A stretch of 64,000 bases of DNA, taken from the IMG/VR virus record IMGVR_UViG_3300018012_000099, one strand, 5' to 3'. Positions within the stretch are counted from its first letter, which is position 1, and the number at the start of each line of letters is the position of its first letter. Shown piece after piece: positions 12,101-25,553 of the stretch. The notes beneath the pieces were generated by a model. The model was not told the origin of the DNA. It made no database searches and worked only from the letters and a program-made list of their open reading frames with translations. Position numbers and translations under genes: made by a program. The DNA is from a virus (Duplodnaviria; Caudoviricetes).

Positions 12101-13300
12101 GATCCTAATCCACGTTTTTACTTTGATGCTTACGGGGCGGTGGTAGAACAAGCGGTTAGTAATACGGATGTTACGGTCAAGATCGCTGCGCCTGCCAGCC
12201 AAATCTTAAGCGTCAAGTTAGCAGCCGGTGACCCTAACGTAGATTACTTCGCTGGTGGAAAATTAGAAATTGATACTCAACATGCTATCCAAGAAGGAGG
12301 TATCAGCATCGGTACCTCTTCAGTCAAAACTTCTGAGCCCATTTTACAAGTTATAACTGTAAAAATTGTGGATGATTTTACTGGTACCGATTACTTTGCT
12401 AATGGTTCTATTGGCACTGATGGTCAAACTATTTATTTAGGGAAAACTCTACCACTTCCAAATGTTTCAGTTATTATTACTTATCAACCAGCTATTAATG
12501 GTCGTGTTGCTCTCAATACTCAGATAATCAGACTCAATCGTCGACTACCAAATCAAAACTCTCACGTTATTGTCAATTACATTCCACAGGGACTGCAAGG
12601 AGACCGCATCTCCATCTACAAGGATACGTCCGGCTATATCAATTTTAGTATTACTGCCTCGGGTACTAACTTTGTAGTGCGTGCTCCTACTTATTGGGCT
12701 AAGAACACCTGGCATCGTGTTAAGGCTAGTTACAAGATTAATGGTGGTTTCGGACAGGACGAAATGCGTCTATTCTTAGATGGCTATCAATATACTAATG
12801 TGCTCTTTGGTCAAGGATTAGTCTTTGGTAAATTTCCAATGGTGATGGGTTCCGTTTCTGTGGGAGATGGTTATAGTTTGACTGGTAATATCATTTTTAA
12901 GGATCCGATTAATGATTTATTTATCGGTAGCCAGTATGACCAGCGATTTCCTGCCTTTTCTTTGTTGGATAATTTTAGAATTAGCAACATTTCCAGACCA
13001 GTTTTTGCACCATATGGAGAGCCAATTGATGTCAATTGGAGTAGTAACCTAAATACCGTCATCCCAGTTACCCCAGACCTATACACTACCTATTTATTGA
13101 ATTATGATGATATGGTTGTGAAAGGGTCGAATTTTGCAGTTCTTACCGATAGAACAGTAGGATCTTTTGATTTTACAGTTAATATTTTTGATTCATTTGG
13201 TATAGTTAGTAGTAGTGCGAAAGTAAAACAAACTTTGGAAGCTTTAATCAATACTTTAAAGCCCGCTAATACTGTGGCATTTATCCAGTATTATACTTGA
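6125..13300 (+). CDS. Giant baseplate wedge protein (gpI/XkdU-like core) with Ig-like and LamG/concanavalin-A-like domains
   Basis: 2391 aa. Wedge-like ERYRDALMAALSSFLQGPTVAAIK and C-terminal LINTLKPANT. Two LamG-like sets: EGTFEQW..W / WKAGQVHQIAASW / MHLFLDG and QGTVEFWISP / WAKNTWHRVKASY / MRLFLDG / LFIGS / LDNFRIS. ATGA overlap with J. Confidence 0.7.
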   Translation: MTTTNLRIVNVQVISSTEIQATFTENLTPNLTTANVSIISTTNDIPNSEVLSVSVSAAILTVSCQPLTPFATYYIKFVSTPQHLFESINGDAVILQDGVSNQFLITGPIDPDNPVKDYLVNFFNGNIYDTDVETSVISQYINSLAINLARALHDIRQIQNENYLSFTVVDEQQFRSEGPYDRLYEEGAYEVLRVGLGPTDAQATITLTFDDFPSFPVTLQQQENVETPTVSSSNQAGTFNIDTLTFNLNNSPVTQVTNIVFTLGTANPIYTYNIELLGYQINNSRYDQNFASSYATLSTNQVRLNTQILNDPLFDINQIIHIQINYQSKDLGRVISASNIDIFTTLTSIREVLPPIENVFTLQHAPITDSSNNIPLLGGVLFLDPNSNTGSLHPAFLVEIPFRLSALPYAPGQYSIDYTTGTVYVYGATLENDGTGPSPPLATYDYRFTYVSETDYVYDVDLLDLVALPLGNLIKNAGVITLLYEEVLIPDTDYVADTHIESLTERVQNRLVALNSVTTLNSPITNVFQIFNETSGEIYTLDRWTRNNQIYFQYTTPPRVLQQVGERATFQTVSNELLFINSISTNTNSVRVFTIFLANNTIVDGTEDGTGSSINSSMSFSNGNIFVVERWYNQEFNATFNFNRLSNPGEYTVDYVNGIIYLAVSATQSNNVGAVTYKMDVIDPNFPHVLSVDDIYYRVSPLAPKNKQFAYLSFGDSHIIPDKPDPSDEAFLNGFVGAPYQLFNNQVGTFVSSSFLPGVTNQVKFVRGVFEYQDLLNNTNPINFASASVGGNFNITVNSLMGQAFDSVQFDGTHYYVLFNQNIPYLSTDILFDFTITRVSDGYSLWDATHVGTIVSGDPVKLVLTGFNSPHTGDLVSVTYSFTILPLSRVIVDYNKGDYFVDYTYLADELIISYEYGDNVIDFRQSNKVSPGTPYYVTYRAGALRDALVKNFGSLVNLPELASLDVNFPRERYRDALMAALSSFLQGPTVAAIKNIGQIISHTEPQVIESAFQTWSLGQGLLFPQSIDTTGAFQLLPAHFGNGVLVNQPNQTITMPANSNIRLEEGTFEQWIVPQWDGLDNDAALTFNITRDGYPINPYRVFIGASEYHPIITNSTFILTKESNVTGLPNTNKDGVFIWYGKDISGNFNRWYLEIIDGYVQPVAPVYKIKITSTGKFYDAKAFNLPSPSNAVIFTGLSALNVTITTNGTPIEEGVTFLSDVEHYFLDVGRKKDRSRLSVFKDASGYMNFRTWDNTGIMYSISADVSSWKAGQVHQIAASWKLSTRNERDEMHLFLDGLEVPNIIKYSQKLQPYLHEKFRTINPEEIAGLSNRDIVGSDDLTTIAGTNSVSSSINFSQFNIFLGDTIIINEIGFSSIGYQIASINGQTLTLNGIMPLSLKGDGRFSINETSFLITSDINVAPNTTVSTIHTFVTGNDLITTMNSNVVTSPGTNFTTKGVQPGYLLRIDSNSPVLVYSIVQVSGHSLTITDPFPVNQTNINFQVYSNTENELPGVRALHPDYAISENSSFQNVLTIFNGIFANDLILVRTLGLNHRDIKKQYYIWSTQKENIIMTQLPPPISLDEADVTKIITPVTAIGPNNSTLVGGVFHSNLIPTAHPTNAQVGRTIQVTIAGTNTDFSTPVQVLLNGVVGINIVTETVTFTNYGTLDFANGFTSLNWVMVIAKPINSAKAALTVELREKYPMTHSEFSGLAPVIRYSYHITGGYTLYADGYDQWVTDGYNLFSDLDIGNYLVIHSPAVVDGYSVAGFYIITGLSVDRHSISIRPTYASGPVPLPPFTGGVYEVLDTTQYRSGLQNGFFTFEVGLLPGEAFFLSTGFYEFDYSTYARIKFDPLNVPIYFGSDMFGGNQANSILDQTILYSVMLTDTRVGEVVAANQRSITKDYNSLIPITSNQQTLVLITFDNFPFTNSALVYVNTDTDRIHFQSNWAVNDNFNQSIVILDKPILVPNTGILDTRKQGTVEFWISPLFDTANDPNPRFYFDAYGAVVEQAVSNTDVTVKIAAPASQILSVKLAAGDPNVDYFAGGKLEIDTQHAIQEGGISIGTSSVKTSEPILQVITVKIVDDFTGTDYFANGSIGTDGQTIYLGKTLPLPNVSVIITYQPAINGRVALNTQIIRLNRRLPNQNSHVIVNYIPQGLQGDRISIYKDTSGYINFSITASGTNFVVRAPTYWAKNTWHRVKASYKINGGFGQDEMRLFLDGYQYTNVLFGQGLVFGKFPMVMGSVSVGDGYSLTGNIIFKDPINDLFIGSQYDQRFPAFSLLDNFRISNISRPVFAPYGEPIDVNWSSNLNTVIPVTPDLYTTYLLNYDDMVVKGSNFAVLTDRTVGSFDFTVNIFDSFGIVSSSAKVKQTLEALINTLKPANTVAFIQYYT

Positions 13301-13308
13301 GAGAAATT

Positions 13309-16300
13309 ATGACTAAACGCAGCCCGGTATCCGCCCCAAAACCCATATGGTACGATAGTCAACAGGTTGATGAGACCGATCTAACCACACAACAGATAGC
13401 TGACGCTACTGTGGAATCATCTATTCTCAATAATCATATAGGGACAGGGGTTTTGCCAGAAACCCTGATTCCGCATGTCTTATTCGATTCCAATCTAGTT
13501 GCCGGATTTTTGGATGGATTGGCTATTCAATCTCAGTCTCAACCTAGTGACAATAATTTAGGTAATCAACTTTCACTCTCTTTGACTAAATCTGACGCAT
13601 CTGTTTATCGCAATGTTAAGGTGGGTATTATTGGTTTAGATTTTCAGAGCAATTTACAATACGAAACTTTCGTTTTCAAAACCAACGAAGTGCAAGTAAG
13701 TCAACATCATTTTACTAAGATTTTGGTGTTATTGTTCAATGATTTGAAGGGAGATCCCACGCGCTCCTTCAACTTGGGTGGGGATTTAGTAATTTCAGAG
13801 GCTCGTCCCATGCAACTCTCTAGAGAGTCTATTATGATCTCTCAGGCTGTGGAGCCTAATCTATTTTTTAGGGATTTTTTTATTGATCCTTCTTTAGGTC
13901 CTATCTCACTACAAGCTATGTTGCAAGCAGCCTTGCCGTTCTACAATGTTAGTAGTTTAAATATTAAGACTCAGCCACTAGATAACCTAGTTATTTCTAG
14001 TGGAGATGTCACCACTCAAATTGGTCAAAAGTTTCAAGCTTCTACTAATAATATTCAAAAAATTACTCTATTACTTTCAGTTAGAAATTTAGTTGCAGGA
14101 CAACAGAATAATTTAATATGGAATGGTGATTTAATTGTTAGTATTTTTCCACTACAAACTACTATTAACTGTGCTACCGATTTAGCCCCAGGTTTACCAA
14201 TTAATTTCTCACCATCTAGTATTCCGGTTGCTCAAATCAGTTTCAACTACGGAAGTTTACAGGCTTCTGGTGTAATTTTAGATTCCATTCCACAACCAGT
14301 AGATTTTATTTTTAGTAACACACCAGCCGCCGTAGGTAATCTTATTCAATCGGGTAATTATTATTGCATAGCCGTTAAACGTGCTGGTAATGCCAATCAA
14401 TGTGATATTCTGATCGCTATCGGAGGAGATGATATTTCTAATTCTAATGCTGCTACTTTTACTGGAGATCTATGGGTTGATTTACCAGGTGAGGATTTAT
14501 GGTTCCGTATTTGGACCGACGCCTCCAAAGTGGCTGATGGTCAGGCTTATGATACTGGTAATGGTGTAACTATTCCAAAAACTATTACCGATCCATCTAG
14601 TCAAGCCACCATAGATTATACTTTTGGACCACAACCATTCGTGGGTAATGATACTTTCAGGGCTGTTTTGGCTGCCATTAATGTAGAAAGTGATCCGGTA
14701 CCTGATGCCAGGACAGGCGAACCAGTAGAGTCTAGACAACAGCTAGAACCACAAGTAACTTTAATGGGCACAGTAGATATTACTAACCTAGAATCTACTA
14801 CTGAGCCTTTAATTTTGGGAACTATTTCTGATAAAAATATCAAGACTTTTCAAACCAGCAACATAGTTATTAATTCAAAGCTGTATACTGCTACTATGGC
14901 TAACAATACTATGTTAATTAGAATAGTAGATGATCCAACTGATGTAGTTAGATTTGATACTTCAGTTTCAGCTCTAGCTACAGAATTACTTAATGGTAAT
15001 TTAGTTGGAGCCAGCATCGCCCCAGATGGAAATAATCCATCTATTACTTATCGTGTTGCTACTGCTAGACTGTGCTCTATGTTAGTAGGAGATGTAGATG
15101 GTAATGGAATTATTGATGAGAATGATTTAAATCTTCTTAATAGCTATCTCGGCTATAATATGAACATTGCGCCACCTCAACAAACTATCATTAATACTAC
15201 CGGTATGTCGTTGGGTAGCACCACTACATTTATCAATGGTTACGAAACCCTTATTCAACCATTTGCTAATTTATTTTCTGTACAATTCCAGTTGGTAGAT
15301 CCTAACACTAATTTGGTAGTGGCGGATGGATATGATGGCGTTTTGATTGCTAATCCAGCTAATCCAAGACTAGCACAATTTACCAGTGCCAGTGTAGCTT
15401 TTAATACTATAGTCGGTTTAACCTCTTACAAACTGGTCATTCTAACCAACACTAATCAAGCTGATCATGGTGGTTTTAATATTATCTCTCTGGATTCTAC
15501 TGCCGATGTTTTGACTATTCAGAAGGTTTTCCTTACTGAAGATAATCTTGGTCAATTACTCAGAGCAGATATTGATGGCGACTTTGTTATTACTTTTATT
15601 GATGGCTACTTATTAGAAAGTTATATTCAACGTTTGCCATTATCGCACTCTCCGGTTAGTACTTATCCCGCCCCCAGCACTAATCCATATACTAAAATTG
15701 GCACTAGATTTAATGTCATTGAATTAGAATTAGAACAATTCATTGATCGTACGGATGATTATACTGCCAATCCAGCTACTCGATCAAGCAGCGTCCACCC
15801 ATTACCAGATATCTTTTTGGATGATGGATACTTTGCGGGCCACGATTTCTATCATTTTCCGGTTCCAATTATTTTTATAGAGCAACTTACTTGGGATGAT
15901 TCTCTAATTATCACTGATTCTATGCCTAAATTAGTGCCTAGCGTCTTCACTTCTCTCACTGGTTTTAATGTTTCATCCTGTCTCATCAATGGCATTCAGT
16001 GCAATGTGTATCCAGTAACACAGCCTTTTGATCCTGGTACCATTGATTATTTTGTTCCTAATAATCTTATCATCGGAACTGGTGATCTACAACGTCCAGA
16101 TGGGGAATTCTATAAAGTGGACTTTGAAATTGGAACCATCGTTTTGGAAATTCCAGATGGTCTCTTTGGCTCTGAACGTACTATTGATATTTTCAATGAT
16201 TTTATGGTAGACGTAACGGGTAACGGTGCCACTAAGCTTGGCTTTCCATCTATGAGGTTCGCTGACTGTTCTTTCGTAGGTCCTAATGCTCTGGCAAATG

Positions 16301-17346
16301 ATCAGGTTCGATTCTCAGTAGCTGTACAGTCATTCTCTCCTAATGTAGATGGTTATAGCGATGATGGTTACTATGGAGCTATTGTAGATGGTAAGATGGG
16401 TGTCAGCATCGATTATACTACTGGTTTGCTCACTTTAAATTTTAGCAATCTATATCAAGATCCAGTACTACAAACTCTTAGCACTAAGATTCAAATTAAT
16501 GTCTTCTTAAAGAAAGGTGGATTTAACAACCAAACTTTGTTTGTGGATTCCACAAAAGTCCAGAATATGCTAGGTATGATTAGTGTTTTCAGTGGGGCTA
16601 ATGATGGTGGTCCATCCGCTCTAGTAGATTTGGGTTTCGATGTTACGGGTATCCTACCTATCTTGCATGGTGGCACCGGGCTCAATGCAGTTGGTGCGGT
16701 CGGCACAGTGTTGACTAGTACTGGTAGTGGTTTAAGTTATCAATTTATTGCGGACTTGGCTGGATTCATTCCGTTCTCCGTAGGTATGGCTAGTGCGGAT
16801 CAAGTACCAAAGACAGATGGTTATGGATTCTTGGATCCAAGTTTTTATTACAAGAACCCAGTGTACATATACGGGGTAGCTGGTACTTTTTCTAATGACA
16901 GTAGTACTCCTGTTACAATTGGAGCGTTGACTTTTAGATTTGATACTTTTATTCTAGAAGGTTGGTCTACATTTGAGTTAGAGGTAATTCTAGAAACTAC
17001 TAATGCATCTGATACGGCTAGAGTGCAATTATACAATGTTAATACGCACACTTATTTGAATTTAGCTACGGGTCCAAGTCAATACTTAACTACTACTAAT
17101 ACATTTGCTACTTTGGTAAGATCGATAGATTTGAGTTCTCAGCTATCTAGTGGTCAAACAGACTTCGTATACGAAGTTCATCTTAGTTTAAGTCCAACCA
17201 GCGGTACTGATGTAGCTATCTGCAAGATGGCTCGACTGGTTATCACTTATAATAATTTGACTTTGAACGGTTCGGCGCAGATTGCTCCTCCAGTTTCTCA
17301 TAGCTATAATTTCGTACCGTTCTTGCCTACCCCTACTCCAGCCTAA
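13309..17346 (+). CDS. Baseplate-proximal structural/fibre protein with dockerin-like Ca-binding repeats
   Basis: N-terminal WYDSQQVDETDL resembles fibre-attachment N-termini. Contains GDVDGNGIIDENDLNLL and ADIDGDFVITFIDGYLL, plus the LPILHGGTG fibre motif. ATG at 13309 preferred over TTG at 13297. Confidence 0.6.
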   Translation: MTKRSPVSAPKPIWYDSQQVDETDLTTQQIADATVESSILNNHIGTGVLPETLIPHVLFDSNLVAGFLDGLAIQSQSQPSDNNLGNQLSLSLTKSDASVYRNVKVGIIGLDFQSNLQYETFVFKTNEVQVSQHHFTKILVLLFNDLKGDPTRSFNLGGDLVISEARPMQLSRESIMISQAVEPNLFFRDFFIDPSLGPISLQAMLQAALPFYNVSSLNIKTQPLDNLVISSGDVTTQIGQKFQASTNNIQKITLLLSVRNLVAGQQNNLIWNGDLIVSIFPLQTTINCATDLAPGLPINFSPSSIPVAQISFNYGSLQASGVILDSIPQPVDFIFSNTPAAVGNLIQSGNYYCIAVKRAGNANQCDILIAIGGDDISNSNAATFTGDLWVDLPGEDLWFRIWTDASKVADGQAYDTGNGVTIPKTITDPSSQATIDYTFGPQPFVGNDTFRAVLAAINVESDPVPDARTGEPVESRQQLEPQVTLMGTVDITNLESTTEPLILGTISDKNIKTFQTSNIVINSKLYTATMANNTMLIRIVDDPTDVVRFDTSVSALATELLNGNLVGASIAPDGNNPSITYRVATARLCSMLVGDVDGNGIIDENDLNLLNSYLGYNMNIAPPQQTIINTTGMSLGSTTTFINGYETLIQPFANLFSVQFQLVDPNTNLVVADGYDGVLIANPANPRLAQFTSASVAFNTIVGLTSYKLVILTNTNQADHGGFNIISLDSTADVLTIQKVFLTEDNLGQLLRADIDGDFVITFIDGYLLESYIQRLPLSHSPVSTYPAPSTNPYTKIGTRFNVIELELEQFIDRTDDYTANPATRSSSVHPLPDIFLDDGYFAGHDFYHFPVPIIFIEQLTWDDSLIITDSMPKLVPSVFTSLTGFNVSSCLINGIQCNVYPVTQPFDPGTIDYFVPNNLIIGTGDLQRPDGEFYKVDFEIGTIVLEIPDGLFGSERTIDIFNDFMVDVTGNGATKLGFPSMRFADCSFVGPNALANDQVRFSVAVQSFSPNVDGYSDDGYYGAIVDGKMGVSIDYTTGLLTLNFSNLYQDPVLQTLSTKIQINVFLKKGGFNNQTLFVDSTKVQNMLGMISVFSGANDGGPSALVDLGFDVTGILPILHGGTGLNAVGAVGTVLTSTGSGLSYQFIADLAGFIPFSVGMASADQVPKTDGYGFLDPSFYYKNPVYIYGVAGTFSNDSSTPVTIGALTFRFDTFILEGWSTFELEVILETTNASDTARVQLYNVNTHTYLNLATGPSQYLTTTNTFATLVRSIDLSSQLSSGQTDFVYEVHLSLSPTSGTDVAICKMARLVITYNNLTLNGSAQIAPPVSHSYNFVPFLPTPTPA

Positions 17347-17367: not shown

Positions 17368-18495
17368 ATGAAGGTTTTGATCCGCCAATTTTTGGGTAAA
17401 AATCACAGTTGGTCCGTAGTGGGTTGGGGCATTGCTAATGCTCTAATTAAGCAAGGACACGAGGTTCACCTCTTCTCTACCGATGGTGTCCAACATTTGC
17501 CCAATAATTTGCGTAGTCATATCGTAGGTTTTACAGAAGAAAATCAACCTAAAGTTTTTGGTAGACTGCCTGATAAAGAGTATGATTGTCAGGTTAGCTA
17601 TACAGCTATGAAAAACTTTCCGATATTCTTGGGTAATGGAAATCAAAATAGATTTGGTATTTGGTGCTATGAATGGTTTGGTAATAATATTTTACCGATG
17701 GGATTTGCTAAGCACTACAAATTTTGCGATTGGTTATGTTCTCCCTCTAACTTTGTAAAGAATGAAATATTCATCAAAAATGGTATTCCGGAAAGTGCTA
17801 TCCAGGTTATTCCGCATGGTATTAATACGGATCAATATCAACAAGATACCAAAATAATTCTTCCTACCAAAAAGAAATTCAAATTACTTGCTAATATTGC
17901 TCAAAACCATATTAGAAAAAACATTCCTGGCTTATTAGACGCTTATGGTAAAGCCTTTACTAATAATGATGATGTGTGTCTTATTCTAAAAGCCAAAGAT
18001 AAACCAGTAGTTGCGCCATTTGAAGTATCTCTTAATGACTGTCTCAAGACTTTTAATCAGAAATATCCAAAACATGCTGAAGTGAAAATATTCTCGGAAT
18101 TCTTGCCGGACATTTCTGCCCTGTATCGTAGTGTAGATGCCATCTACACCATGAGTTATGGTGAAGGATTTTATTTTCCTGGCTTGGAAGGATTAGCTGC
18201 TGGTAAACTATCCATCGCTCCTGACCATGGCGGTCATGTGGATTTTCTTAACAATCAAAATGCCCTATTAGTCAAGAGCGTCCCCGAGCGTGCTAATCCT
18301 AAAAGTATGTACTGGGAGCCTAAACCTGACGCTATGTGGTATAAGCCGGATATAGATAGCGCAGTCAGTCAGCTTCGTCATGCATTTCAGAATTATGAAA
18401 GCATTAATCAAGTAGTGGAGAGCCAAAGGGAGTATATTTTTGATACTTATAATTGGACTACTATCACCTCACAAATTACAAATTTATGCCGATGA
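17368..18495 (+). CDS. Glycosyltransferase, GT-B fold (family 4 / Glycos_transf_1-like)
   Basis: VIPHGIN, RKNIPGLLDAY, LILKAK, LYRSVDA, GEGFYFPGLEGLAAGK (E-x7-E motif), GGHVDFL. Confidence 0.9.
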   Translation: MKVLIRQFLGKNHSWSVVGWGIANALIKQGHEVHLFSTDGVQHLPNNLRSHIVGFTEENQPKVFGRLPDKEYDCQVSYTAMKNFPIFLGNGNQNRFGIWCYEWFGNNILPMGFAKHYKFCDWLCSPSNFVKNEIFIKNGIPESAIQVIPHGINTDQYQQDTKIILPTKKKFKLLANIAQNHIRKNIPGLLDAYGKAFTNNDDVCLILKAKDKPVVAPFEVSLNDCLKTFNQKYPKHAEVKIFSEFLPDISALYRSVDAIYTMSYGEGFYFPGLEGLAAGKLSIAPDHGGHVDFLNNQNALLVKSVPERANPKSMYWEPKPDAMWYKPDIDSAVSQLRHAFQNYESINQVVESQREYIFDTYNWTTITSQITNLCR

Positions 18496-18510
18496 TTAAG
18501 AAGAATAATT

Positions 18511-19227
18511 ATGTCTAAATACGATTTCGCCCTAGATATGAAAACAGATAACTCTCTTTCTGTTATTCTCAGAAATATGAAACTAAACTCTACCGTATTA
18601 GAGGTGGGTCCTGCCCATGGTCGTATGACCAAGTATATGAAGGAGACCCTCAATTGTAATGTAGATATTGTGGAAATTGATGAAGAAGCCGGCAATGTGG
18701 CAAAACAATGGGCAAGGAATGCTTATTTAGGGCCGCGACTCGGCGACATCGAACGAGAAATTGAACTACATCCAATTGGAAAGGGTAGTATATTTAATTT
18801 AATTGCAAATCACGGCACTTTTGACTATATAATTTTTGCCGATGTATTAGAGCACTTAGTAAATCCAGATAAAGTGTTGTCCAATTCAAAACAAGTATTA
18901 AATAAAGATGGTTCTGTTTGGATCTCTATCCCTAACATAGCTTATAATGGCGTTATCCTGGAATTGATGAACGATCAATTTACCTATCGAGAAACTGGTC
19001 TGCTAGATAATACTCACCTTCGTTTTTTCACTATGAACTCTCTAGATAAAATGGTTAAGAAGTGTGGATTCAGGATTAATTTTGAACATAATTTGCAGAA
19101 TAAGGTTAATTTTTCCGAGTTTAAAGATGCTTATACTAAGGTTCCACCGGCAATAGCGTCTTTCCTTAAATTTAGACCTGGCGGAGAAGTTTACCAAATG
19201 ATATGGGAGCTAAAGGTTAATGAATAA
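18511..19227 (+). CDS. Class I SAM-dependent methyltransferase (Methyltransf_23-like, glycan-cluster type)
   Basis: VLEVGPAHG motif I, FDYIIFADVLEHL, ISIPNIA, GLLDNTHLRFFT. Confidence 0.88.
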   Translation: MSKYDFALDMKTDNSLSVILRNMKLNSTVLEVGPAHGRMTKYMKETLNCNVDIVEIDEEAGNVAKQWARNAYLGPRLGDIEREIELHPIGKGSIFNLIANHGTFDYIIFADVLEHLVNPDKVLSNSKQVLNKDGSVWISIPNIAYNGVILELMNDQFTYRETGLLDNTHLRFFTMNSLDKMVKKCGFRINFEHNLQNKVNFSEFKDAYTKVPPAIASFLKFRPGGEVYQMIWELKVNE

Positions 19228-19942
19228 AGTACTCAGCATTATCATTCCGGTTTTCAACAAATACAATTTCACTAAAGCCTGTCTACAAGACCTTGCCAAA
19301 CTGCCCGAGGATCATCAAATTATCGTAGTGGATAACGGAAGTAGCGACGAGACCCAACGCGAGCTAGAGAAAAATAAAAAAATTACCTATCATCGTGAGT
19401 CGGTCAATTTAGGATTTGCCAAGGCGTGCAACGAAGGTTATAGTATAGCAGTCGCGCCGAACATTCTATTTTTAAACAACGACATTCGCGTGAAAACCAA
19501 CCATGAAGGTTGGACTCAAGAACTGATCAAATGGTGCTCGCAGGGCTTAGTAGGACCCACCATGGGGCAATTAGATAACGAGTTGAACTTCGTACAAGAA
19601 GCCAATCGATCCCTCCCAGGTAAATCTTACATGTCAGGTTGGTGCCTTGCATCTTCCAAAGAAATTTGGGACAAACTGGAAATTAGACGAGATACCACGA
19701 TCCTCTACGATCGAACTCCAGCCCCTCAAATATTCTCGGAAGAATTTGGTTTAGCATATTTTGAGGATACGGATCTCTCATTTAGAGCTAGGAAGTTGGG
19801 AATTGCTATGCAGGTCATAGACATGCCAGTGGTTCATTTTGGCAAGCAAACCAGTCGTCAATTAAATACACATCAGTTGTATAAACAAGCAAGACAAATC
19901 TTTGTCAAGAAGTGGAGTAAGGATAATGCCAGAGGGTCCTGA
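19220..19942 (+). CDS. Glycosyltransferase family 2 (GT-A)
   Basis: LSIIIPVFN, IVVDNGSSDET, NLGFAKACNEG, LFLNND, YFEDTDLSFRA. Confidence 0.9.
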   Translation: MNKVLSIIIPVFNKYNFTKACLQDLAKLPEDHQIIVVDNGSSDETQRELEKNKKITYHRESVNLGFAKACNEGYSIAVAPNILFLNNDIRVKTNHEGWTQELIKWCSQGLVGPTMGQLDNELNFVQEANRSLPGKSYMSGWCLASSKEIWDKLEIRRDTTILYDRTPAPQIFSEEFGLAYFEDTDLSFRARKLGIAMQVIDMPVVHFGKQTSRQLNTHQLYKQARQIFVKKWSKDNARGS

Positions 19943-20726
19943 GGTGCGTCTAAGTGTGGAATTAATTCGTCCATTAGTTGTGGGAAAAACTACTGCTGTC
20001 TTTTCTATGCATGGCAGATATCAAAAGACTAATCCAGAAGGACTGGATGCGTTCAAAAACAAATCACCAGTTCTTGATGTAAAAACCAAAGGTAAATTCA
20101 TGTATTGGGTTTTCGAGGATGAATGGTATATGTTTTGCACCTTTGGAATGAGTGGTCAGTGGAGCCCTAAAAGAGGCAAACACCCAGCTCTCGGTATTGA
20201 GTTTACTGATGGAAGTAAAGTGTACTTTAATGATCCGCGCCATTTTGGAACCATTAAATTCGTTCACGGTGAAGCTAACCTCAAAAAGAAACTAGCAGAA
20301 TTAGGTTGGGACCCTTTCGATGGTGCTACAGATTTTAATATTCTGTGGGTTGAATCTAAGATCAAATCTTCTAATAAAACAATTGGCGAAATATTGATGA
20401 ACCAATCTATATTTGCAGGTGTGGGTAATTATATTCGTGCTGAAGCATTATATATATCCAAAATATCTCCTTGGCGTACTGCTAATAGTTTATTGGATGA
20501 AGAGATTTATTCTCTTTGTGATAATATCGTAATTATTATGCAAGAATCATACAAACATCAGGGCGCCACTATCCATACTTATGCTACGCCATATGGTGAA
20601 GAAGGTAAGTATTCTAGTTGTTTTAAAGTTTATGGTCAAAAACAAGATCCATTAGGTAATCCGATTAAGAAAGAAACTACACCAGAAGGCAGAGCTATCC
20701 ATTGGTGTCCAGCAGTACAAAGTTAA
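19926..20726 (+). CDS. Fpg/Nei DNA glycosylase/AP lyase, zincless-finger type
   Basis: Starts MPEGPEV (catalytic Pro2/Glu3). Contains KGKFM, FNDPRHFG and the H2TH motif QSIFAGVGNYIRAEALY. C-terminal finger lacks the four Cys. True start is ATG 19926. Confidence 0.92.
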   Translation: MPEGPEVRLSVELIRPLVVGKTTAVFSMHGRYQKTNPEGLDAFKNKSPVLDVKTKGKFMYWVFEDEWYMFCTFGMSGQWSPKRGKHPALGIEFTDGSKVYFNDPRHFGTIKFVHGEANLKKKLAELGWDPFDGATDFNILWVESKIKSSNKTIGEILMNQSIFAGVGNYIRAEALYISKISPWRTANSLLDEEIYSLCDNIVIIMQESYKHQGATIHTYATPYGEEGKYSSCFKVYGQKQDPLGNPIKKETTPEGRAIHWCPAVQS

Positions 20727-20734
20727 GGTGTAAG

Positions 20735-21742
20735 ATGAATACAACATTAGGAAAGATTTTAGTCATAGTGGGATTATTTCTCACGTTAGGGGCGTTGGGA
20801 TTTGTGATTTACAATCAGCATCAAATCTCTGTGCAGCAAACAGCCATCCAAACGGAACAGGTAGTGCAGCGCCAACTGATTGATGGTATTGTACGCAGCC
20901 AAACTAGCTGGGCAACACAACAAGATGTTGCTAATTTGCTGGCAGCTAATGGTGTCAATGCGGATGCTCTCAAAGCCATTCAGAACGATTTGAATACTCT
21001 TAATGCCTCAGTGACCACTGCCAATGTAGTTACTGTCAACAGTCAGGGGCAAAGTGTGACGGGGCAGCCAAGCACTGGTAAGGGCACGACAAATCCTAAT
21101 CCTCCTGGACCGCCCCCTGCCGGTTGTCCCTCTACTGATCCTTTCGGATTTATGCAAGCTCAGCAAACTTATCAGTTGAATGAAGATTTTGGTAATGTTA
21201 AAGTTCCCTTCGGAACAGTAGGTTTCTCCGCCTTTCAGGCTCAACCCTGGAGTGCCACTATTCCGTCGCGCACCTATACCGTGGATAATGTTATCGGTAC
21301 GGATGAAAATCAGAGAAACTATGTATATAGTCAAGTCAACATTCAAACAAATGGCAAGACTTATACGGTGCCCATTGCCTCTTCTACCACTAAACAAGTG
21401 TATCCAACCGCTAAGTTTAGCTTCTGGAACCCAAGGCTCTTATTGGGTGCGGATGGTGGTATCAACCTCAATCATGTCAGGGGTGAGTTTACTCCAAGCA
21501 TTAACGTAGGTATCATGAGCTATGGACAGTATAAAACAACTCCCGATTGGTCCATTCTAGAGGTGGGTGCTGGTTGGCAAGCCGTTAATGGAAAACCATC
21601 TTTGGTAGTTACTCCAGTGGCTTACAACGTGGGTCGTAATGTCTTCTCGCCGCTAATGAATAATACCTATGTAGCTCCCTCTGTTTCGGTCGCTTCTGAT
21701 GCCACGTGGACCGTTAGTGGCGGTCTTAGGGTAGGTTTCTAA
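20735..21742 (+). CDS. Membrane-anchored protein: N-terminal TM helix, helical stalk, beta-rich C-terminus ending in Phe (spanin-like or envelope protein)
   Basis: TM segment KILVIVGLFLTLGALGFVIY; Q-rich helical region; PPGPPPAGCP linker; alternating beta-strand C-terminus ...TWTVSGGLRVGF. Confidence 0.45.
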   Translation: MNTTLGKILVIVGLFLTLGALGFVIYNQHQISVQQTAIQTEQVVQRQLIDGIVRSQTSWATQQDVANLLAANGVNADALKAIQNDLNTLNASVTTANVVTVNSQGQSVTGQPSTGKGTTNPNPPGPPPAGCPSTDPFGFMQAQQTYQLNEDFGNVKVPFGTVGFSAFQAQPWSATIPSRTYTVDNVIGTDENQRNYVYSQVNIQTNGKTYTVPIASSTTKQVYPTAKFSFWNPRLLLGADGGINLNHVRGEFTPSINVGIMSYGQYKTTPDWSILEVGAGWQAVNGKPSLVVTPVAYNVGRNVFSPLMNNTYVAPSVSVASDATWTVSGGLRVGF

Positions 21743-22569
21743 TGTTACATATCCTCACTCTCACTTGGAACGGTGTAGATAAATTAACTAAATTGCATCA
21801 GTCCTTAATTCCAGCTCTAGGAAACTCTTCTTATACCTGGCATATCAAAGATAATGGATCTACAGACAATACAGTGGAAATAGTTAAGTCCTGGGAAAGT
21901 AATATTAGAGTTCTTCCTTATAAGGATAATAGACAAAACTTTGCAGAAGGTATGAACTATCTTTTTCATGACGTTTCGCCGCCCGATAATGATTTAATAA
22001 TGTTGCTCAATAATGATGTGATTTTTAATGACACTACCTCTATTGGTAACATGATGAATATCATTCAGAAAGATTCTACTGTTGGGGCTGTGGGCGCCAG
22101 ATTACTCTATACTAATACCGATAAGCTCCAGCATGCGGGTGTTGTCTTTGACAAACAGTACAAAACCCCCATGCACTTTCGTAGAGGGCAAGTTTCAGAT
22201 GAAATAGCGGAGAAGAATAGATTATTTCAGGTAGTTACAGGTGCCGTTTTGATTACCCGCCCTAGTGCCTATCGTGAAGTATGCAAAACCAACAAGTCAG
22301 GTTTGCCAGGTATGGATGAGAAATTTCATTGGGCATTTGATGATGTAGATTTATGTCTCTCTATCAACTACAAGCAGAAGAAAAAAATTGTCTACTGTGG
22401 CGACACTAATATTTTTCATGAAGAAAGTGCTACCCTTAAAAAACATCCAGCTAACAAACTTTTCCTTAATCACAATCTTTTGTATCTTTTTGAAAAGTGG
22501 CAAAAGACGTACACAATAGATGGGGATATATATGCTCACGACACTAGACACAATTTGTATCGTGGGTGA
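21742..22569 (+). CDS. Glycosyltransferase family 2 (GT-A)
   Basis: IKDNGSTDNT, NFAEGMN, MLLNNDV, VGAVGARLLY, LQHAGV, VTGAVL, FDDVDLCL. Confidence 0.9.
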   Translation: MLHILTLTWNGVDKLTKLHQSLIPALGNSSYTWHIKDNGSTDNTVEIVKSWESNIRVLPYKDNRQNFAEGMNYLFHDVSPPDNDLIMLLNNDVIFNDTTSIGNMMNIIQKDSTVGAVGARLLYTNTDKLQHAGVVFDKQYKTPMHFRRGQVSDEIAEKNRLFQVVTGAVLITRPSAYREVCKTNKSGLPGMDEKFHWAFDDVDLCLSINYKQKKKIVYCGDTNIFHEESATLKKHPANKLFLNHNLLYLFEKWQKTYTIDGDIYAHDTRHNLYRG

Positions 22570-22571
22570 GT

Positions 22572-23540
22572 ATGAGCAAGAAGATTCTCGTTACGGGTTC
22601 TTGTGGATTTATTTTAGGAAATTACGTTCGCAAAGCCATCTACAGTCAAAAGAAAGAAGCTGATAGGGATACCTTCATCAGTATCGATAGAGTTACAGCT
22701 AACAACTTGAACTCTATGTATTGGAACCAGAACCACAAGTTCTATCCAGCTGATATTCGTGATAATCATGTCATGGATATCATCTTTCAGCGCGAGCAAC
22801 CCGAGATTGTTATTCATGGTGCTGCCGAAACCTTTGTCGATACATCGCTTAGTGATCCGAATTCTTTTGTTACCTCTAATGTATTGGGAACTCAAGTAGT
22901 TATTAATTGCTGTCTTAAACATAATGTTAAGAAATTGGTTTACATCTCTACGGATGAGGTATATGGGCAACTGACCAGCGAGAAAGATATTGCCTGGACC
23001 GAGGAGGCGCCGTTAGACCCTAGGAACCCCTATTCAGCTTCTAAAGCGGCTGGGGAGATGCTGGTCAAAGCAGCCAACGCCAGCCATGGGTTAATTTATA
23101 ACATTACTAGAAGCTCCAACAACTATGGACCCCGCCAGCTCCCCGAGAAGCTGATTCCCAAGGCGATAAAGTGCATCCTGACTGGTCAAAAAATTCCTAT
23201 TTATGGAGAAGGTAAACAGATTCGAGATTGGACCTACGTAGATGACAATTGTAGCGCCATTTCTACGATAGTGGAGAAGGGCGCTTCCAATGAAACTTAT
23301 AACATTTCTGCCCATCAGGAGTTCACTAATATTGAAGTCATCCAGGCAGTATGTAATGCTATGAATGAAGGGTATCAACTTATCTCCTTTATCCCAGATC
23401 CCCGTCCTGGTCACGATTTTCGCTACGCAGTAGATACTTCTAAGCTACAAGCTTTGGGGTGGAAACCTTCCTATAAGCTTAAGGGCGGGCTGGAGGAGAC
23501 GGTGAATTGGTATAAGTTGAACCAGTGGTTTTTGAAGTGA
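22572..23540 (+). CDS. rfbB: dTDP-glucose 4,6-dehydratase (extended SDR)
   Basis: LVTGSCGFILG, HGAAETFVDTS, YISTDEVYG (T-D-E), YSASK (YxxxK), SNNYGPRQLPEKLIP, RDWTYVDD, RPGHDFRYAVD. Confidence 0.9.
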   Translation: MSKKILVTGSCGFILGNYVRKAIYSQKKEADRDTFISIDRVTANNLNSMYWNQNHKFYPADIRDNHVMDIIFQREQPEIVIHGAAETFVDTSLSDPNSFVTSNVLGTQVVINCCLKHNVKKLVYISTDEVYGQLTSEKDIAWTEEAPLDPRNPYSASKAAGEMLVKAANASHGLIYNITRSSNNYGPRQLPEKLIPKAIKCILTGQKIPIYGEGKQIRDWTYVDDNCSAISTIVEKGASNETYNISAHQEFTNIEVIQAVCNAMNEGYQLISFIPDPRPGHDFRYAVDTSKLQALGWKPSYKLKGGLEETVNWYKLNQWFLK

Positions 23541-23566: not shown

Positions 23567-24928
23567 ATGCCAGCAACATCAGTAACGGAACAGGGAAAAC
23601 CAGAAGAAATAGTAGATAACATGCCTAATACAGAAGTTAAAACAGAAGATAAAATGGATGCTAGCAAGTTGGCGGCGCTAAAAGCCAAAAGTGAAACCAA
23701 ACAACAGGAGAGTAAGATGGCAGCTAAGATCGTATCAAGAAAAGAAAGAAGTATTGCTTTAGGTGTAGTAGGATCGGGTCAAGCCGGCTCTAGATTAGCT
23801 GAAGCTTTTTATCAGCTAGGCTACGATACAGTAGCTATCAATACTGCCATGCAAGATTTAAAATTTATTAACATTCCAGATGCCAACAAACTATTGTTAG
23901 AGCACGGTTTGGGTGGAGCGGCTAAAGAAATTGAAATTGGTCGTGCGGCAGCCGAATCGCATCGTGGCGAAATTCTTCAAATGCTGAACGATAAGTTAGC
24001 TGGTTCCCAGATTAATTTACTCTGCCTTTCTTTAGGGGGCGGTTCGGGAGCAGGTTCTTGTGAAACTTTGGTTGACGTTCTGTCTGGCACAGGTAAGCCA
24101 CTAGTAGTAATTACTGTGCTCCCGATGGATAATGAAGATGCTCAAACTAAGACTAACGCGTTAGAAACTCTTTCTAAGTTAGCTAGAATGGCTCAAAATA
24201 AAAAGATTAATAACCTAATTGTAGTTGATAACGCTAAACTAGAAGTTATCTACCATAACGTTAGTCAAATGGAATTCTTCGGTGTTGCTAACAAGGCAAT
24301 TGTAGAGCCTATCGATATTTTTAATACGCTCTCTTCCATGCCATCCTCCGTCAAAGGACTTGATCCTATGGAGTGGGGCAAGCTATTCACTGATGGTGAA
24401 GGTTTGACGGTTTATGGGGAATTGACTGTGGATAACTTTTCTGAAGACACCGCTATTGCCGAAGCAGTGGTTAACAATTTGAATGGTAATTTGTTAGCTG
24501 GTGGTTTTGATCTTAAACAATCGAGATATGTGGGCGTAATTATTGCTGCCAACAAAGAGGTTTGGGCAAAGATTCCAAGCTCTAGTATCACTTATGCTAT
24601 GGCTATGATCAATGATCAATGTGGTACTCCTAAGGGAGTTTTCAAAGGTATTTACACCGTAGAAACTCCTGACCCTGTTGTCAAAGTATACAGTATGTTC
24701 AGCGGTCTCGGTTTGCCAGAGTCCCGCGTCACTCAGCTCAAGAAGGAAGCTCACGAGCACACCACCGCTGTCAAGAACAAGGATGAAGCTCGTAACCTCA
24801 ATCTACAATTGGAAACGGGCACTAACGAAACGGTTTCTGCGGCACAAAAGATCAAAGATAAGATGGCTGCCAAATCTTCTGCTTTTGGTAAACTGGTTGG
24901 AGGGGTGGTAGATAGGCGCAAACAATGA
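23567..24928 (+). CDS. Tubulin/FtsZ-family GTPase (PhuZ/TubZ-like)
   Basis: GSGQAGSRLA (T1), AINTA, GLGG, GGGSGAG (tubulin signature), VVDN, T7-like GLDPME; charged N- and C-terminal tails; AAGGAG SD. Confidence 0.88.
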   Translation: MPATSVTEQGKPEEIVDNMPNTEVKTEDKMDASKLAALKAKSETKQQESKMAAKIVSRKERSIALGVVGSGQAGSRLAEAFYQLGYDTVAINTAMQDLKFINIPDANKLLLEHGLGGAAKEIEIGRAAAESHRGEILQMLNDKLAGSQINLLCLSLGGGSGAGSCETLVDVLSGTGKPLVVITVLPMDNEDAQTKTNALETLSKLARMAQNKKINNLIVVDNAKLEVIYHNVSQMEFFGVANKAIVEPIDIFNTLSSMPSSVKGLDPMEWGKLFTDGEGLTVYGELTVDNFSEDTAIAEAVVNNLNGNLLAGGFDLKQSRYVGVIIAANKEVWAKIPSSSITYAMAMINDQCGTPKGVFKGIYTVETPDPVVKVYSMFSGLGLPESRVTQLKKEAHEHTTAVKNKDEARNLNLQLETGTNETVSAAQKIKDKMAAKSSAFGKLVGGVVDRRKQ

Positions 24929-24988
24929 GTAGTCTATACTGGATTTATTGTCTAGAGAATAAAATCGATGAAAAATATAGGAAAAGTA

Positions 24989-25551: not shown

Positions 25552-25553
25552 AG

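What the first reader, a model, noticed from the sequence alone, without database searches (positions are those of the whole stretch)
17368..23540. Glycan-building cluster attached to the end of the baseplate operon
Seen: GT4, a SAM methyltransferase, GT2, a second GT2 and an intact RmlB (T-D-E and YxxxK) start 21 nt after the last baseplate gene. A further GT-B-like gene and a HAD hydrolase lie at 58-60 kb. Established: RmlB makes dTDP-4-keto-6-deoxyglucose, the precursor of rhamnose and other 6-deoxy sugars; virion glycosylation is known in giant viruses and some actinobacteriophages. Inference: three transferases plus a sugar methyltransferase suggest a multi-sugar methylated glycan. Synteny with the DGY-rich proteins points to virion decoration rather than DNA glucosylation or host O-antigen conversion.
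Basis: partly seen in the sequence, partly recalled or inferred. Interest (0 to 1): 0.7.

Follow-up and report, generated by a model that had tools for sequence, protein, structure and literature searches.

The report
Tail-linked sugar-adding gene island, huge phage
An uncultured wetland huge phage, like about 70 relatives, carries soluble sugar-transferring enzymes and a sugar-activating enzyme right after its last baseplate/fibre gene, most likely to sugar-coat its own tail, though the target is unproven.

Summary

In 60 non-redundant relatives, a GT4 always follows the baseplate gene. RmlB is present in 52 and the membrane protein in 50. The two GT2s come or go together (50 both, 9 neither). 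The methyltransferase (5) and Fpg (23) are accessory.

Catalytic residues are conserved in 54-71 homologs of each enzyme. All enzymes lack membrane segments. GT4 exists as two deep alleles that swap between near-identical phages. More distant relatives have larger, different glycan islands at the same spot.

Complete relatives lack RmlA and RmlC, and most lack a ThyA-family enzyme.

My reading is a phage-encoded glycosylation module that diversifies like a surface-antigen locus. Its most likely target is the phage's own exposed tail proteins (confidence about 0.45). Remodelling of host envelope glycans is a serious rival (about 0.3). DNA glycosylation is unlikely.

This scan reached the same reading on another genome (e1-5392273). 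The island is a new variant of virus-encoded virion glycosylation, still untested.

The parts
13297..17346 (+). Last of three giant baseplate/fibre-like structural genes (1349 aa). It carries 6 DGY motifs and is the candidate acceptor protein.
   Evidence: It follows a gp6-like wedge gene (phrog_6, E 3e-34). DGY count is 6 against 0.23 expected. Homologs at 25-79% identity precede a GT4 in every adequately long relative locus.
17368..18495 (+). GT4-family (GT-B, retaining-type) glycosyltransferase. It is the invariant anchor of the island.
   Evidence: PF13439 and PF00534 score above their cut-offs. The AF2 model has pLDDT 95 and shows a GT-B fold; the top Foldseek hit is the chlorovirus NY-2A glycosyltransferase 3oy2, followed by PglA, BshA and HepE. 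The EX7E residues E266 and E274 are conserved in 71 and 68 of 71 homologs. No membrane segment.
18511..19227 (+). Class I SAM-dependent methyltransferase. Accessory: present in 5 of 60 relatives.
   Evidence: PF13489, E 5e-17. The substrate is unknown, as PDB 3cc8 is uncharacterised. Unrelated class I methyltransferases occur in two other island types.
19220..19942 (+). GT2 (GT-A) glycosyltransferase 'GT2a'. Soluble.
   Evidence: PF00535, E 2e-17. D38/D43, N86-N87-D88 and E182-D183-x-D185 are conserved in 46-56 of 56 homologs. No membrane segment. It is present or absent together with GT2b.
19926..20726 (+). Fpg/Nei-family DNA glycosylase. An accessory insert (23 of 60 relatives), probably not part of the glycan pathway.
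   Evidence: TIGR00577, E 6e-48; PF01149 and PF06831. P2 and E3 are conserved in 24 and 26 of 26 homologs. The C-terminus has only two Cys.
20735..21742 (+). Conserved membrane-anchored protein of unknown family ('UNK'). It has an N-terminal TM helix, a helical stalk, a Pro-rich linker and a beta-rich C-terminal domain that ends in ...RVGF.
   Evidence: No Pfam, PHROG, NCBIfam or PADLOC hit. KD19 is 2.59 at residues 8-26. The AF2 model has pLDDT 69, and residues 228-335 resemble small beta-barrels (Z 9.2 to a designed barrel; Z 5.3-6.2 to TM barrels and OmpA). A profile search finds 408 clusters at 50% identity, all about 330 aa. It is present in 50 of 60 relatives, always between the GT2 positions.
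21742..22569 (+). GT2 (GT-A) glycosyltransferase 'GT2b'. Soluble. Its start overlaps the stop of UNK by 1 nt.
   Evidence: PF00535, E 1.4e-9. D37/D42, N90-N91-D92, D200-D201-x-D203 and H226 are conserved in 36-54 of 54 homologs. No membrane segment.
22566..23540 (+). dTDP-glucose 4,6-dehydratase (RmlB-like SDR). Its start overlaps the end of GT2b by 4 nt.
   Evidence: TIGR01181 scores 346 bits, just under the 365 cut-off. PDB hits 2hun, 6bi4 and 1g1a have E 6e-72 to 7e-66. T129, D130, E131, Y156 and K160 are conserved in 43-53 of 54 homologs. Present in 52 of 60 relatives. It carries an intein in L010/L011/L021/L022.
58289..59266 (+). Second, dispersed GT-B-like glycosyltransferase (MJ1255/VC2487-like), conserved in the clade.
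   Evidence: TIGR00661, E 1.9e-9 (37 bits, far below its cut-off), and PF13528, E 2e-4. Homologs at 38-55% identity occur in all five complete relatives.
59270..59896 (+). Weakly HAD-like protein. Its link to the glycan pathway is unproven.
   Evidence: TIGR02247, E 1.2e-4; no Pfam hit. Read by eye: motif I is DVGNV (second Asp missing), and the SN, K and DD motifs are present.

Best explanation
This is a phage-encoded, cytoplasmic protein-glycosylation module that decorates the phage's own outward-facing tail, baseplate and fibre proteins.

Proposed steps:
1. RmlB takes host dTDP-glucose to dTDP-4-keto-6-deoxyglucose. This feeds a 6-deoxyhexose donor pool, which host enzymes probably finish.
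2. The invariant GT4, encoded directly after the last fibre-like gene, puts the first sugar on the acceptor protein.
3. The co-inherited GT2a/GT2b pair extends the glycan, perhaps together with the dispersed MJ1255-like GT-B.
4. In a minority of phages a class I methyltransferase caps it.

The island diversifies like a surface-antigen locus.

Shown: gene identities, intact catalytic residues, solubility of the enzymes, conserved position, and modular gain and loss.

Inferred: the donor sugar, the order of the steps, and above all the acceptor.
For: 1. Tight same-strand packing from the baseplate genes through RmlB, with gaps of 21, 15 and 8 nt and overlaps of 8, 17, 1 and 4 nt. No terminator signal above chance.
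2. In 60 non-redundant relatives anchored on the baseplate protein or on GT4, a GT4 always follows the baseplate homolog. This holds even where that homolog is only 25-31% identical and the rest of the island differs. The linkage is therefore to the tail module, not to the downstream TubZ block.
3. Catalytic motifs are conserved in 54-71 distinct homologs of each enzyme. RmlB hosts an intein in four loci, which suggests the phage needs the gene.
4. All enzymes are soluble. The island has no initiating polyprenyl-phosphate transferase, flippase, polymerase or Gtr parts.
5. Diversifying pattern:
- Two GT4 alleles of about 41% identity swap between phages whose flanking genes are 85-93% identical.
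- The GT2 pair is gained or lost as a unit.
- Distant relatives carry 5-7 GTs plus a DegT aminotransferase, an acetyltransferase, a methyltransferase and RmlB at the same site.
6. The upstream structural proteins carry DGY about 20 times more often than expected, and the enzymes carry none. The outgroup Bacillus phage G has neither the island after its baseplate genes nor DGY enrichment.
7. Precedent: Mimivirus keeps a 4,6-dehydratase, GTs, a class I methyltransferase and the fibril protein gene in one cluster, with clade-specific variation (PMC10117803). Mycobacteriophage virion glycosylation is cited in PMC12619734.
Against: - There is no direct evidence that any virion protein is glycosylated.
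- Soluble GT4 and GT2 enzymes are equally typical of lipid-linked polysaccharide assembly.
- The island also sits at the start of a block of TubZ, lysis and replication genes, so late co-expression with the tail genes is not shown.
- DGY and the island are both clade-wide, so their co-occurrence amounts to about one evolutionary event. L068/L106 keep the island with only weak DGY enrichment.
- The pathway is incomplete. No RmlC was found in five complete relatives, and RmlA in only one.
- GT4 keeps both Glu of EX7E, unlike the GT4 rhamnosyltransferase WsaF (PMC2943079). The link between RmlB and GT4 is therefore unclear.
- A conserved membrane-anchored protein inside the island hints at an envelope-related process.
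Confidence: 0.45

Rival explanations
1. The island remodels a host envelope glycan. The soluble GTs add side-chain or altered sugars to lipid-linked O-antigen, capsule or teichoic-type intermediates made by the host, with RmlB supplying 6-deoxyhexose. This would mask the receptor against superinfection, or stop progeny from sticking to debris. The membrane-anchored protein would be the envelope part of this function.
For: - Iyer et al. 2021 (PMC7824862, section 3.4.10) read polymorphic GT clusters of jumbo phages as diversifying outer polysaccharides to pre-empt attachment.
- Soluble GT4 and GT2 enzymes are the normal tools of polysaccharide assembly.
- RmlB alone makes sense if the host supplies RmlA, RmlC and RmlD.
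- A TM-anchored protein lies inside the island.
- The phage has a pectate-lyase-fold tailspike, so its receptor is probably a polysaccharide.
- Linkage of receptor-modifying genes to receptor-binding genes, and allele swapping, would also fit co-evolution with host glycan types.
Against: - No initiating transferase, flippase, polymerase, ligase or acetyltransferase is present in the window's island.
- GT4 is a core gene at 58-81% identity over more than 120 protein clusters and was not found in 185,579 species genomes by pattern scan. That is unlike a host-derived moron.
- Its position after the last fibre-like gene survives even where the rest of the island is replaced.
Confidence: 0.3
2. The enzymes glycosylate another phage-made or host protein rather than the tail. 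A candidate is the co-encoded membrane-anchored protein, which could be a glycosylated envelope, lysis or exclusion factor.
For: The unknown protein is wedged between the two GT2 genes with a 1-nt stop/start overlap. It is kept in 50 of 60 relatives, including minimal islands of GT4, UNK and RmlB. It has an exposed Pro/Ser/Thr/Gly-rich linker.
Against: - The protein is absent from the distant islands that still follow the baseplate gene.
- If it is exported, its linker would lie outside the cytoplasm, beyond the reach of soluble cytoplasmic GTs.
- Neighbouring Fpg, homing-endonuclease and TnpB inserts show that adjacency here does not always mean shared function.
Confidence: 0.1
3. The genes are a hot spot of unrelated accessory genes without one common product. 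RmlB boosts host rhamnose metabolism, and the GTs have separate targets.
For: The same interval accepts Fpg, a Dam-type methylase, LAGLIDADG and DUF4379 endonucleases, TnpB and inteins. The methyltransferase and Fpg are sporadic.
Against: GT4, UNK and RmlB keep order and orientation in 50 or more of 60 loci. GT2a and GT2b are gained or lost together in 59 of 60 loci. Translational overlaps link the genes.
Confidence: 0.08
4. The island glycosylates phage DNA as protection against restriction, as in T-even and other phages with hypermodified bases.
For: Virus GTs that put diverse glycans on DNA are known (Pyle et al. 2024, as cited in PMC12619734). A DNA glycosylase (Fpg/Nei) lies inside the island.
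Against: - The window encodes ThyX, and no hydroxymethylase was seen.
- Three of five complete relatives have no ThyA-family gene. The two that do score as ordinary thymidylate synthases (E 1e-94 to 1e-101).
- Fpg is absent from 37 of 60 islands.
- Five to seven GTs plus an aminotransferase and an acetyltransferase in distant islands fit a polysaccharide better than a base adduct.
Confidence: 0.04

Closest known systems
Mimivirus / Megavirinae fibril glycosylation gene clusters (R135 fibril protein, L136, GTs L137-L140, R141 4,6-dehydratase, L142, R132 class I methyltransferase; PMC10117803)
   Same: - Virus-encoded and independent of the host's glycosylation machinery.
- An NDP-glucose 4,6-dehydratase, several GTs and a class I SAM methyltransferase are clustered with the gene of the surface protein they decorate.
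- Cluster content differs between clades. The distant islands L029 and L030 even add a DegT aminotransferase and an acetyltransferase, as in the viosamine pathway.
   Different: - This is a bacterial virus, and the structural genes are tail, not capsid fibrils.
- The pathway is incomplete without the host: no epimerase/reductase and no RmlA.
- No glycan has been analysed.
- The GT4 is not an ortholog of the mimivirus GTs.
Virion O-glycosylation of mycobacteriophages by phage-encoded glycosyltransferases (Freeman et al. 2023, known here only through PMC12619734 and PMC11256854; the paper itself is not held)
   Same: Tailed phages that carry their own soluble GTs and use them on virion proteins.
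   Different: - There the glycans sit on C-termini of the capsid and tail-tube subunits, in actinobacterial hosts, with small genomes and two to three GTs.
- Here the candidates are baseplate/fibre proteins of a huge phage, with an RmlB, a membrane-anchored protein and a hypervariable island.
- No sequence relation was found. The best cultured-phage hits of GT4 are Streptomyces phage GTs at 22-26% identity.
Polymorphic glycosyltransferase / NDP-sugar clusters of jumbo (mainly cyano-) phages, read as host outer-polysaccharide modification (Iyer et al. 2021, PMC7824862 section 3.4.10)
   Same: Jumbo-phage setting, several paralogous GT families, sugar-nucleotide enzymes, and polymorphism between related phages.
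   Different: Those clusters are sporadic. Here the GT4 anchor is a core gene fixed behind the last baseplate/fibre gene in every relative examined.
Gtr-type O-antigen seroconversion (GtrA/GtrB/GtrC) and prophage wall-teichoic-acid GTs
   Same: Phage-encoded GT2-type enzymes placed near receptor-binding genes. GT2a has a weak N-terminal hit to phrog_841 'GtrB-like' (E 3e-6).
   Different: There are no membrane segments in any enzyme and no GtrA or GtrC. The setting is a lytic huge phage, and the genes are core rather than morons.
S-layer protein glycosylation of Firmicutes (Tyr-, Ser- or Thr-linked rhamnose-rich glycans; WsaC-F, RmlABCD; PMC2943079)
   Same: Rhamnose-pathway enzymes, soluble GT4 and GT2 transferases and a terminal O-methyltransferase build a glycan that ends up on a surface protein. 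O-linkage to tyrosine is known there, which bears on the DGY idea.
   Different: That glycan is built on a lipid carrier, exported by an ABC transporter and transferred by an oligosaccharyltransferase, none of which is encoded here. WsaF lacks the first Glu of EX7E, and the phage GT4 keeps it.

Membership tests
dTDP-glucose 4,6-dehydratase (RmlB; extended SDR; TIGR01181) | Catalytic Thr-Asp-Glu and Tyr-x3-Lys | tested here: met
   T129-D130-E131 and Y156/K160 are present and kept in 43-53 of 54 homologs.
dTDP-glucose 4,6-dehydratase (RmlB; extended SDR; TIGR01181) | N-terminal Rossmann Gly motif for NAD+ | tested here: met
   G11 and G14 are conserved in 54 and 53 of 54 homologs. The third position is G or S.
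dTDP-glucose 4,6-dehydratase (RmlB; extended SDR; TIGR01181) | Score above the curated equivalog cut-off | tested here: not met
   346.4 bits against a cut-off of 365.1, a narrow miss. The best PDB matches are all dTDP-glucose 4,6-dehydratases at E 6e-72 to 1e-62. Preference for dTDP over UDP is therefore not settled.
dTDP-L-rhamnose pathway (RmlA-D) | RmlA, RmlC and RmlD encoded alongside RmlB | tested here: not met
   No PF00908 hit in five complete relatives. PF00483 scores over its cut-off in one. G001 has a single SDR. The window's own genome is not held.
CAZy GT4 (retaining GT-B) | Two-Rossmann GT-B fold | tested here: met
   The AF2 model has pLDDT 95.3. Foldseek matches GT4 structures 3oy2, 8dvz, 3mbo and 4xsu at E 1e-15 to 1e-14 and TM 0.63-0.73.
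CAZy GT4 (retaining GT-B) | EX7E motif in the C-terminal domain | tested here: met
   E266 and E274 (EGFYFPGLE); E266 in 71 of 71 and E274 in 68 of 71 homologs.
CAZy GT2 (inverting GT-A) | Pfam PF00535 above cut-off, with nucleotide-binding Asp and a DxD-type metal site | tested here: met
   GT2a scores 64.1 and GT2b 38.5 bits against a cut-off of 23.3. DNGS..D, the NND triad and (E/D)D-x-D are conserved in 36-56 of 54-56 homologs.
Gtr-type O-antigen conversion | Membrane-bound GtrB (C-terminal TM helices) with GtrA flippase and GtrC | tested here: not met
   The maximum KD19 of every enzyme is 1.13 or less. The only TM segment is in the unknown protein. No GtrA or GtrC family hit.
Phage DNA glycosylation (T4-type and relatives) | Synthesis of a hydroxymethylated base (ThyA-family hydroxymethylase) that the GT then modifies | tested here: inconclusive
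   The window has ThyX only. G001, G003 and G004 have no PF00303 hit. G002 and G005 have typical ThyA scores. The window's whole genome could not be searched.
Virus-encoded virion glycosylation (mycobacteriophage / giant-virus type) | Virus-encoded GTs plus a glycan demonstrated on a virion protein | not testable with these tools
   GTs are present and intact. No proteomic, glycan or expression data exist for this uncultured phage.
Fpg/Nei DNA glycosylase | N-terminal Pro2 nucleophile and Glu3, H2TH domain, C-terminal zinc finger | tested here: inconclusive
   P2, E3 and H2TH are met. The C-terminal stretch has two Cys instead of four, so a classical zinc finger is not evident.
Outer-membrane beta-barrel proteins (OmpA/OmpX-like) for the unknown protein | 8-stranded antiparallel barrel with C-terminal aromatic residue and a cleavable signal peptide | tested here: inconclusive
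   The protein ends in ...RVGF. Residues 228-335 align to small barrels at Z 5.3-9.2 and TM 0.53 or less. The model has pLDDT 69, and the N-terminus is a long TM helix rather than a typical signal peptide.

The most novel reading that the evidence does not exclude
The invariant GT4 is a protein O-glycosyltransferase that reads the Asp-Gly-Tyr motif on exposed tail, baseplate and fibre proteins and starts a tyrosine-linked glycan. The GT2 pair, the dispersed GT-B and RmlB-derived 6-deoxyhexose then extend it. Swapping of GT4 alleles and of whole islands would give huge phages exchangeable 'glycotypes' of their host-recognition apparatus. This would be a new sequon and a new viral protein-glycosylation system in a clade of hundreds of uncultured phages.
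Probability: 0.2. Interest if true: 0.85.

Novelty: new variant of a known kind. Interest (0 to 1): 0.55.

Why it matters
If the target is the virion, a large and widespread clade of 350-500 kb phages sugar-coats its own host-recognition machinery, using an exchangeable gene island. That would extend virion glycosylation from a few actinobacteriophages and giant eukaryotic viruses to huge phages. It would give the GT genes common in huge-phage genomes a concrete role, and it would supply the enzyme side for the unexplained DGY motif on their tail proteins. If the target is instead the host surface, the island is a conserved receptor-masking device of lytic huge phages. Either answer is testable with a handful of recombinant proteins.

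Tried and rejected
- Nucleotide similarity of the region to 50,697 phage records: none. Protein search with the unknown protein and with the 1349-aa baseplate protein against cultured phages: none.
- The window's own genome is not held, so whole-genome questions were asked of five complete IMG/VR relatives instead.
- Single-protein scans of IMG/VR found almost nothing. Alignment-based scans worked.
- Scan of 185,579 species genomes with the GT4 alignment: no relative, so no host hint.
- Foldseek of the unknown protein against PDB: nothing below E 1e-3. VIA-align, Atlas and BFVD gave only weak small-barrel or OMP-like rows. The profile search of 1.84 billion proteins returned only same-architecture, unnamed relatives. 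The language-model atlas gave only viral hypothetical proteins.
- Promoter and terminator scan of 12-27 kb: counts equal to shuffled sequence, so it gives no evidence on transcription units.
- PADLOC: no defence-system match beyond a generic methyltransferase domain.
- Sequencing runs: 13 wetland DNA runs hold the stretch and no RNA holder is listed, so expression and co-transcription could not be examined.
- A search for baseplate-bearing relatives without a GT island, as an internal negative control for the DGY link, found none in IMG/VR.
- Complex prediction was not used. An enzyme-substrate pair is a poor case for it, and I do not claim stable binding.
- Freeman et al. 2023 could not be read.

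Full report
**What is in the stretch**

Region 17368-23540 holds seven tightly packed genes on the + strand.
- GT4 glycosyltransferase, 17368-18495.
- Class I SAM methyltransferase, 18511-19227.
- GT2 'a', 19220-19942.
- Fpg/Nei DNA glycosylase. The ORF starts at 19902; the probable start is 19926, which gives MPEGPEV.
- A 335-aa protein with no family hit. The ORF starts at 20702; the ATG is at 20735.
- GT2 'b', 21742-22569.
- RmlB-like dTDP-glucose 4,6-dehydratase, 22566-23540.

These assignments rest on Pfam, PHROGs and NCBIfam and on PDB sequence searches. GT4 begins 21 nt after the stop of a 1349-aa gene. The remaining junctions are gaps of 15 and 8 nt or overlaps of 8, 17, 1 and 4 nt.

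**Setting**

The window belongs to a huge phage.
- Upstream lie a gp6-like baseplate wedge gene and three giant structural genes.
- Downstream lie a TubZ/PhuZ-type tubulin, an endolysin, a helicase, ribonucleotide reductase and PhoH.
- Further on are a second block of fibre-like genes, a pectate-lyase-fold tailspike and ThyX.
- Relatives are contigs of 350-500 kb from environmental metagenomes.
- The only cultured relative found is Bacillus phage G, at 24-31% identity for TubZ, Fpg and the wedge protein.

**Are the enzymes functional?**

- GT4 folds with pLDDT 95 into a GT-B enzyme. Its best structural match is a chlorovirus NY-2A glycosyltransferase, followed by PglA, BshA and HepE.
- Its EX7E glutamates are conserved in 71 (E266) and 68 (E274) of 71 homologs.
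- Both GT2s keep the nucleotide-binding Asp residues, an N-N-D triad and an acidic (E/D)D-x-D motif in 36-56 of 54-56 homologs.
- RmlB keeps T129/D130/E131 and Y156/K160 in 43-53 of 54 homologs.
- In four relatives the RmlB gene is interrupted by an intein. Inteins usually sit in genes the carrier needs.
- None of the enzymes has a membrane segment. The only one in the stretch is the N-terminal helix of the unknown protein.

**Comparative anatomy**

I fetched 36 IMG/VR loci with a GT4 alignment and 79 with an alignment of the 1349-aa protein. These gave 69 non-redundant loci, 60 of them with more than 6 kb after GT4.
- A GT4 follows the baseplate homolog in all of them.
- RmlB is present in 52.
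- The unknown protein is present in 50, always between the GT2 positions.
- GT2a and GT2b are both present in 50, both absent in 9, and split in one partial case.
- The methyltransferase is present in 5 and Fpg in 23.
- Other inserts are homing endonucleases, a TnpB and a Dam-type methylase.

So the conserved unit is GT4, the unknown protein and RmlB. The GT2 pair is an optional extension module. The methyltransferase and Fpg are accessories.

**Diversification**

GT4 occurs as two deep alleles, about 60-80% and about 40-45% identical to the window's copy. The alleles do not follow the flanking genes. In the closest relative (L001/L119), TubZ is 93% identical, GT2b 89%, RmlB 85% and the baseplate C-terminus 93%, yet GT4 is only 41% identical over its full length.

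In relatives whose baseplate protein is only 25-31% identical, the same position holds larger and different islands.
- L029 has a double GT4, two GT2s, a nucleotide-diphospho-sugar transferase, a GT47-like enzyme, a methyltransferase, a DegT aminotransferase and RmlB.
- L030 has four GT4s, a GT2, a hexapeptide acetyltransferase, a methyltransferase and an Asn-synthase homolog.

The three methyltransferases in the three island types are not detectably related to one another. This argues for repeated recruitment of methylation to the glycan. The overall pattern is that of a surface-antigen locus.

**Pathway completeness**

- Five complete or near-complete relatives have no RmlC, and only one has an RmlA.
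- G001 (452 kb, with terminal repeats) has a single SDR, no GT2 and no ThyA-family gene.
- G001 does carry the cassette GT4, one further GT-B, and a homolog of the window's 58289-59266 gene.
- That gene is an MJ1255-like GT-B (E 2e-9), present in all five relatives at 38-55% identity.
- The neighbouring HAD call is weak.
- The phage must rely on the host for dTDP-glucose and probably for the steps after RmlB.
- GT4 keeps the first Glu of EX7E, which the GT4 rhamnosyltransferase WsaF has replaced by Pro (PMC2943079). GT4 may therefore transfer an ordinary hexose, and the user of the RmlB product is open.

**The unknown protein**

- It has an N-terminal TM helix running into a long helix, a Pro-rich linker and a beta-rich C-terminal half that ends in ...RVGF.
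- The last roughly 108 residues resemble small beta-barrels. The best row is a designed barrel at Z 9.2; transmembrane barrels and OmpA score Z 5.3-6.2, and Atlas rows reach TM 0.53 or less. This is suggestive only.
- A profile search of 1.84 billion proteins found 408 clusters, all about 330 aa, and none informative.
- Its role is open. It is the main reason to keep an envelope-directed reading alive.

**What is the target?**

Three readings can be weighed down.
- Gtr-type seroconversion fails its membership test.
- DNA glycosylation lacks a hydroxymethyl-base pathway. It also fits poorly with islands of five to seven GTs plus amino-sugar enzymes.
- Defence-system models do not match.

Two readings remain.

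The virion reading is favoured by:
- the deep and exclusive linkage of GT4 to the last fibre-like gene;
- the absence of any lipid-carrier or export genes;
- the core-gene status of GT4, together with its absence from cellular genomes in a pattern scan;
- the roughly 20-fold DGY enrichment in the upstream proteins, with the sequence context shown;
- the Mimivirus precedent, in which dehydratase, GTs, methyltransferase and the fibril protein gene form one clade-specific cluster (PMC10117803).

The host-glycan reading follows Iyer et al. (PMC7824862). It is favoured by:
- the ordinary polysaccharide character of the enzymes;
- the dependence on host Rml enzymes;
- the membrane-anchored protein;
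- the polysaccharide-directed tailspike.

The test is not decisive. Every baseplate-bearing relative in IMG/VR has the island and is DGY-enriched. One lineage has only weak enrichment (4 in 4644 aa, L068/L106). DGY density does not depend on the GT2 pair or on the GT4 allele. The only negative is the outgroup phage G, which has neither the island nor the enrichment (2 DGY in about 9,500 aa). That amounts to one evolutionary contrast.

**Relation to earlier notes of this scan**

Notes e1-5337498, e1-5319449 and e1-5319440 describe the DGY motif on this genome. I confirmed the enrichment but find the co-occurrence argument weaker than stated. Note e1-5392273 describes the same island on another genome and reaches the same reading. 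My synteny survey agrees with it and adds four points: the allele swap, the paired GT2 behaviour, the minimal core and the RmlB intein.

**Verdict**

The island is a conserved, diversifying, phage-encoded glycosylation module. Its most likely target is the phage's own tail (confidence about 0.45), with host-glycan remodelling a real alternative (about 0.3). It is a new variant of virus-encoded glycosylation. Interest is moderate to high, but everything beyond gene identity is untested.

Noticed in passing
window 19926-20726: An Fpg/Nei DNA glycosylase lies inside the glycan island. It has Pro2/Glu3 and an H2TH domain but only two Cys at the C-terminus, so it may be a zincless finger. It is present in 23 of 60 relatives, always between GT2a and the unknown protein.
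   Followed up: partly
L010:13609-15714, L022:13673-15760 (also L011, L021): RmlB is a 696-702 aa open frame whose two SDR halves are separated by an insert of about 370 aa with intein-splicing-domain hits (E 2e-7 and 3e-5). This looks like an intein near the active-site region of a phage sugar dehydratase.
   Followed up: partly
L001:597-1733 versus window 17368-18495: The closest relative has neighbours 85-93% identical but a GT4 only 41% identical over its full length. Two deep GT4 alleles are spread mosaically over the clade.
   Followed up: partly
L003:11327-12472 (- strand): A TnpB/OrfB_IS605 (Cas12f-like) gene is inserted right after GT4 in one relative. LAGLIDADG and DUF4379 (treble-clef) endonuclease genes and a Dam-type methylase occupy the same interval in others.
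   Followed up: no
window 23567-24928: A TubZ/PhuZ-type tubulin (PF00091 and TubZ-like_C) directly follows RmlB in nearly all relatives. Its only cultured-phage match is Bacillus phage G gp138, at 24% identity.
   Followed up: no
window 48933-52550 (- strand): A 1205-aa pectate-lyase-fold tailspike with an endosialidase-type N-terminal extension carries no DGY motif, while the fibre-like genes next to it (42500-48932) carry nine.
   Followed up: no
window 24968-26094: Four small ORFs of 93-102 aa with no family hit lie between TubZ and a homing endonuclease/endolysin pair. They are possible holin or spanin candidates and were not examined.
   Followed up: no
L029:10001-20469 and L030:9989-20894: Distant relatives carry much larger glycan islands at the same site. 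These include a fused double GT4, a GT47/exostosin-like enzyme, a DegT aminotransferase, a hexapeptide acetyltransferase and an Asn-synthase homolog, which suggests amino-sugar chemistry of the viosamine type.
   Followed up: partly
window 61336-63059 (- strand): ThyX (PF02511) lies next to an IMPDH/GMP-reductase-family gene. Two of five complete relatives carry ThyA instead or in addition.
   Followed up: no
window 20735-20830 and relatives P0166, P0175, P0179: JGI annotates three homologs of the unknown protein as type IV pilins PilE/PilA. The N-terminus (M-S-P-T-L-I-K-I-L-V-A-I-G...) resembles a pilin helix but lacks the Gly-1 and Glu+5 of prepilins.
   Followed up: no
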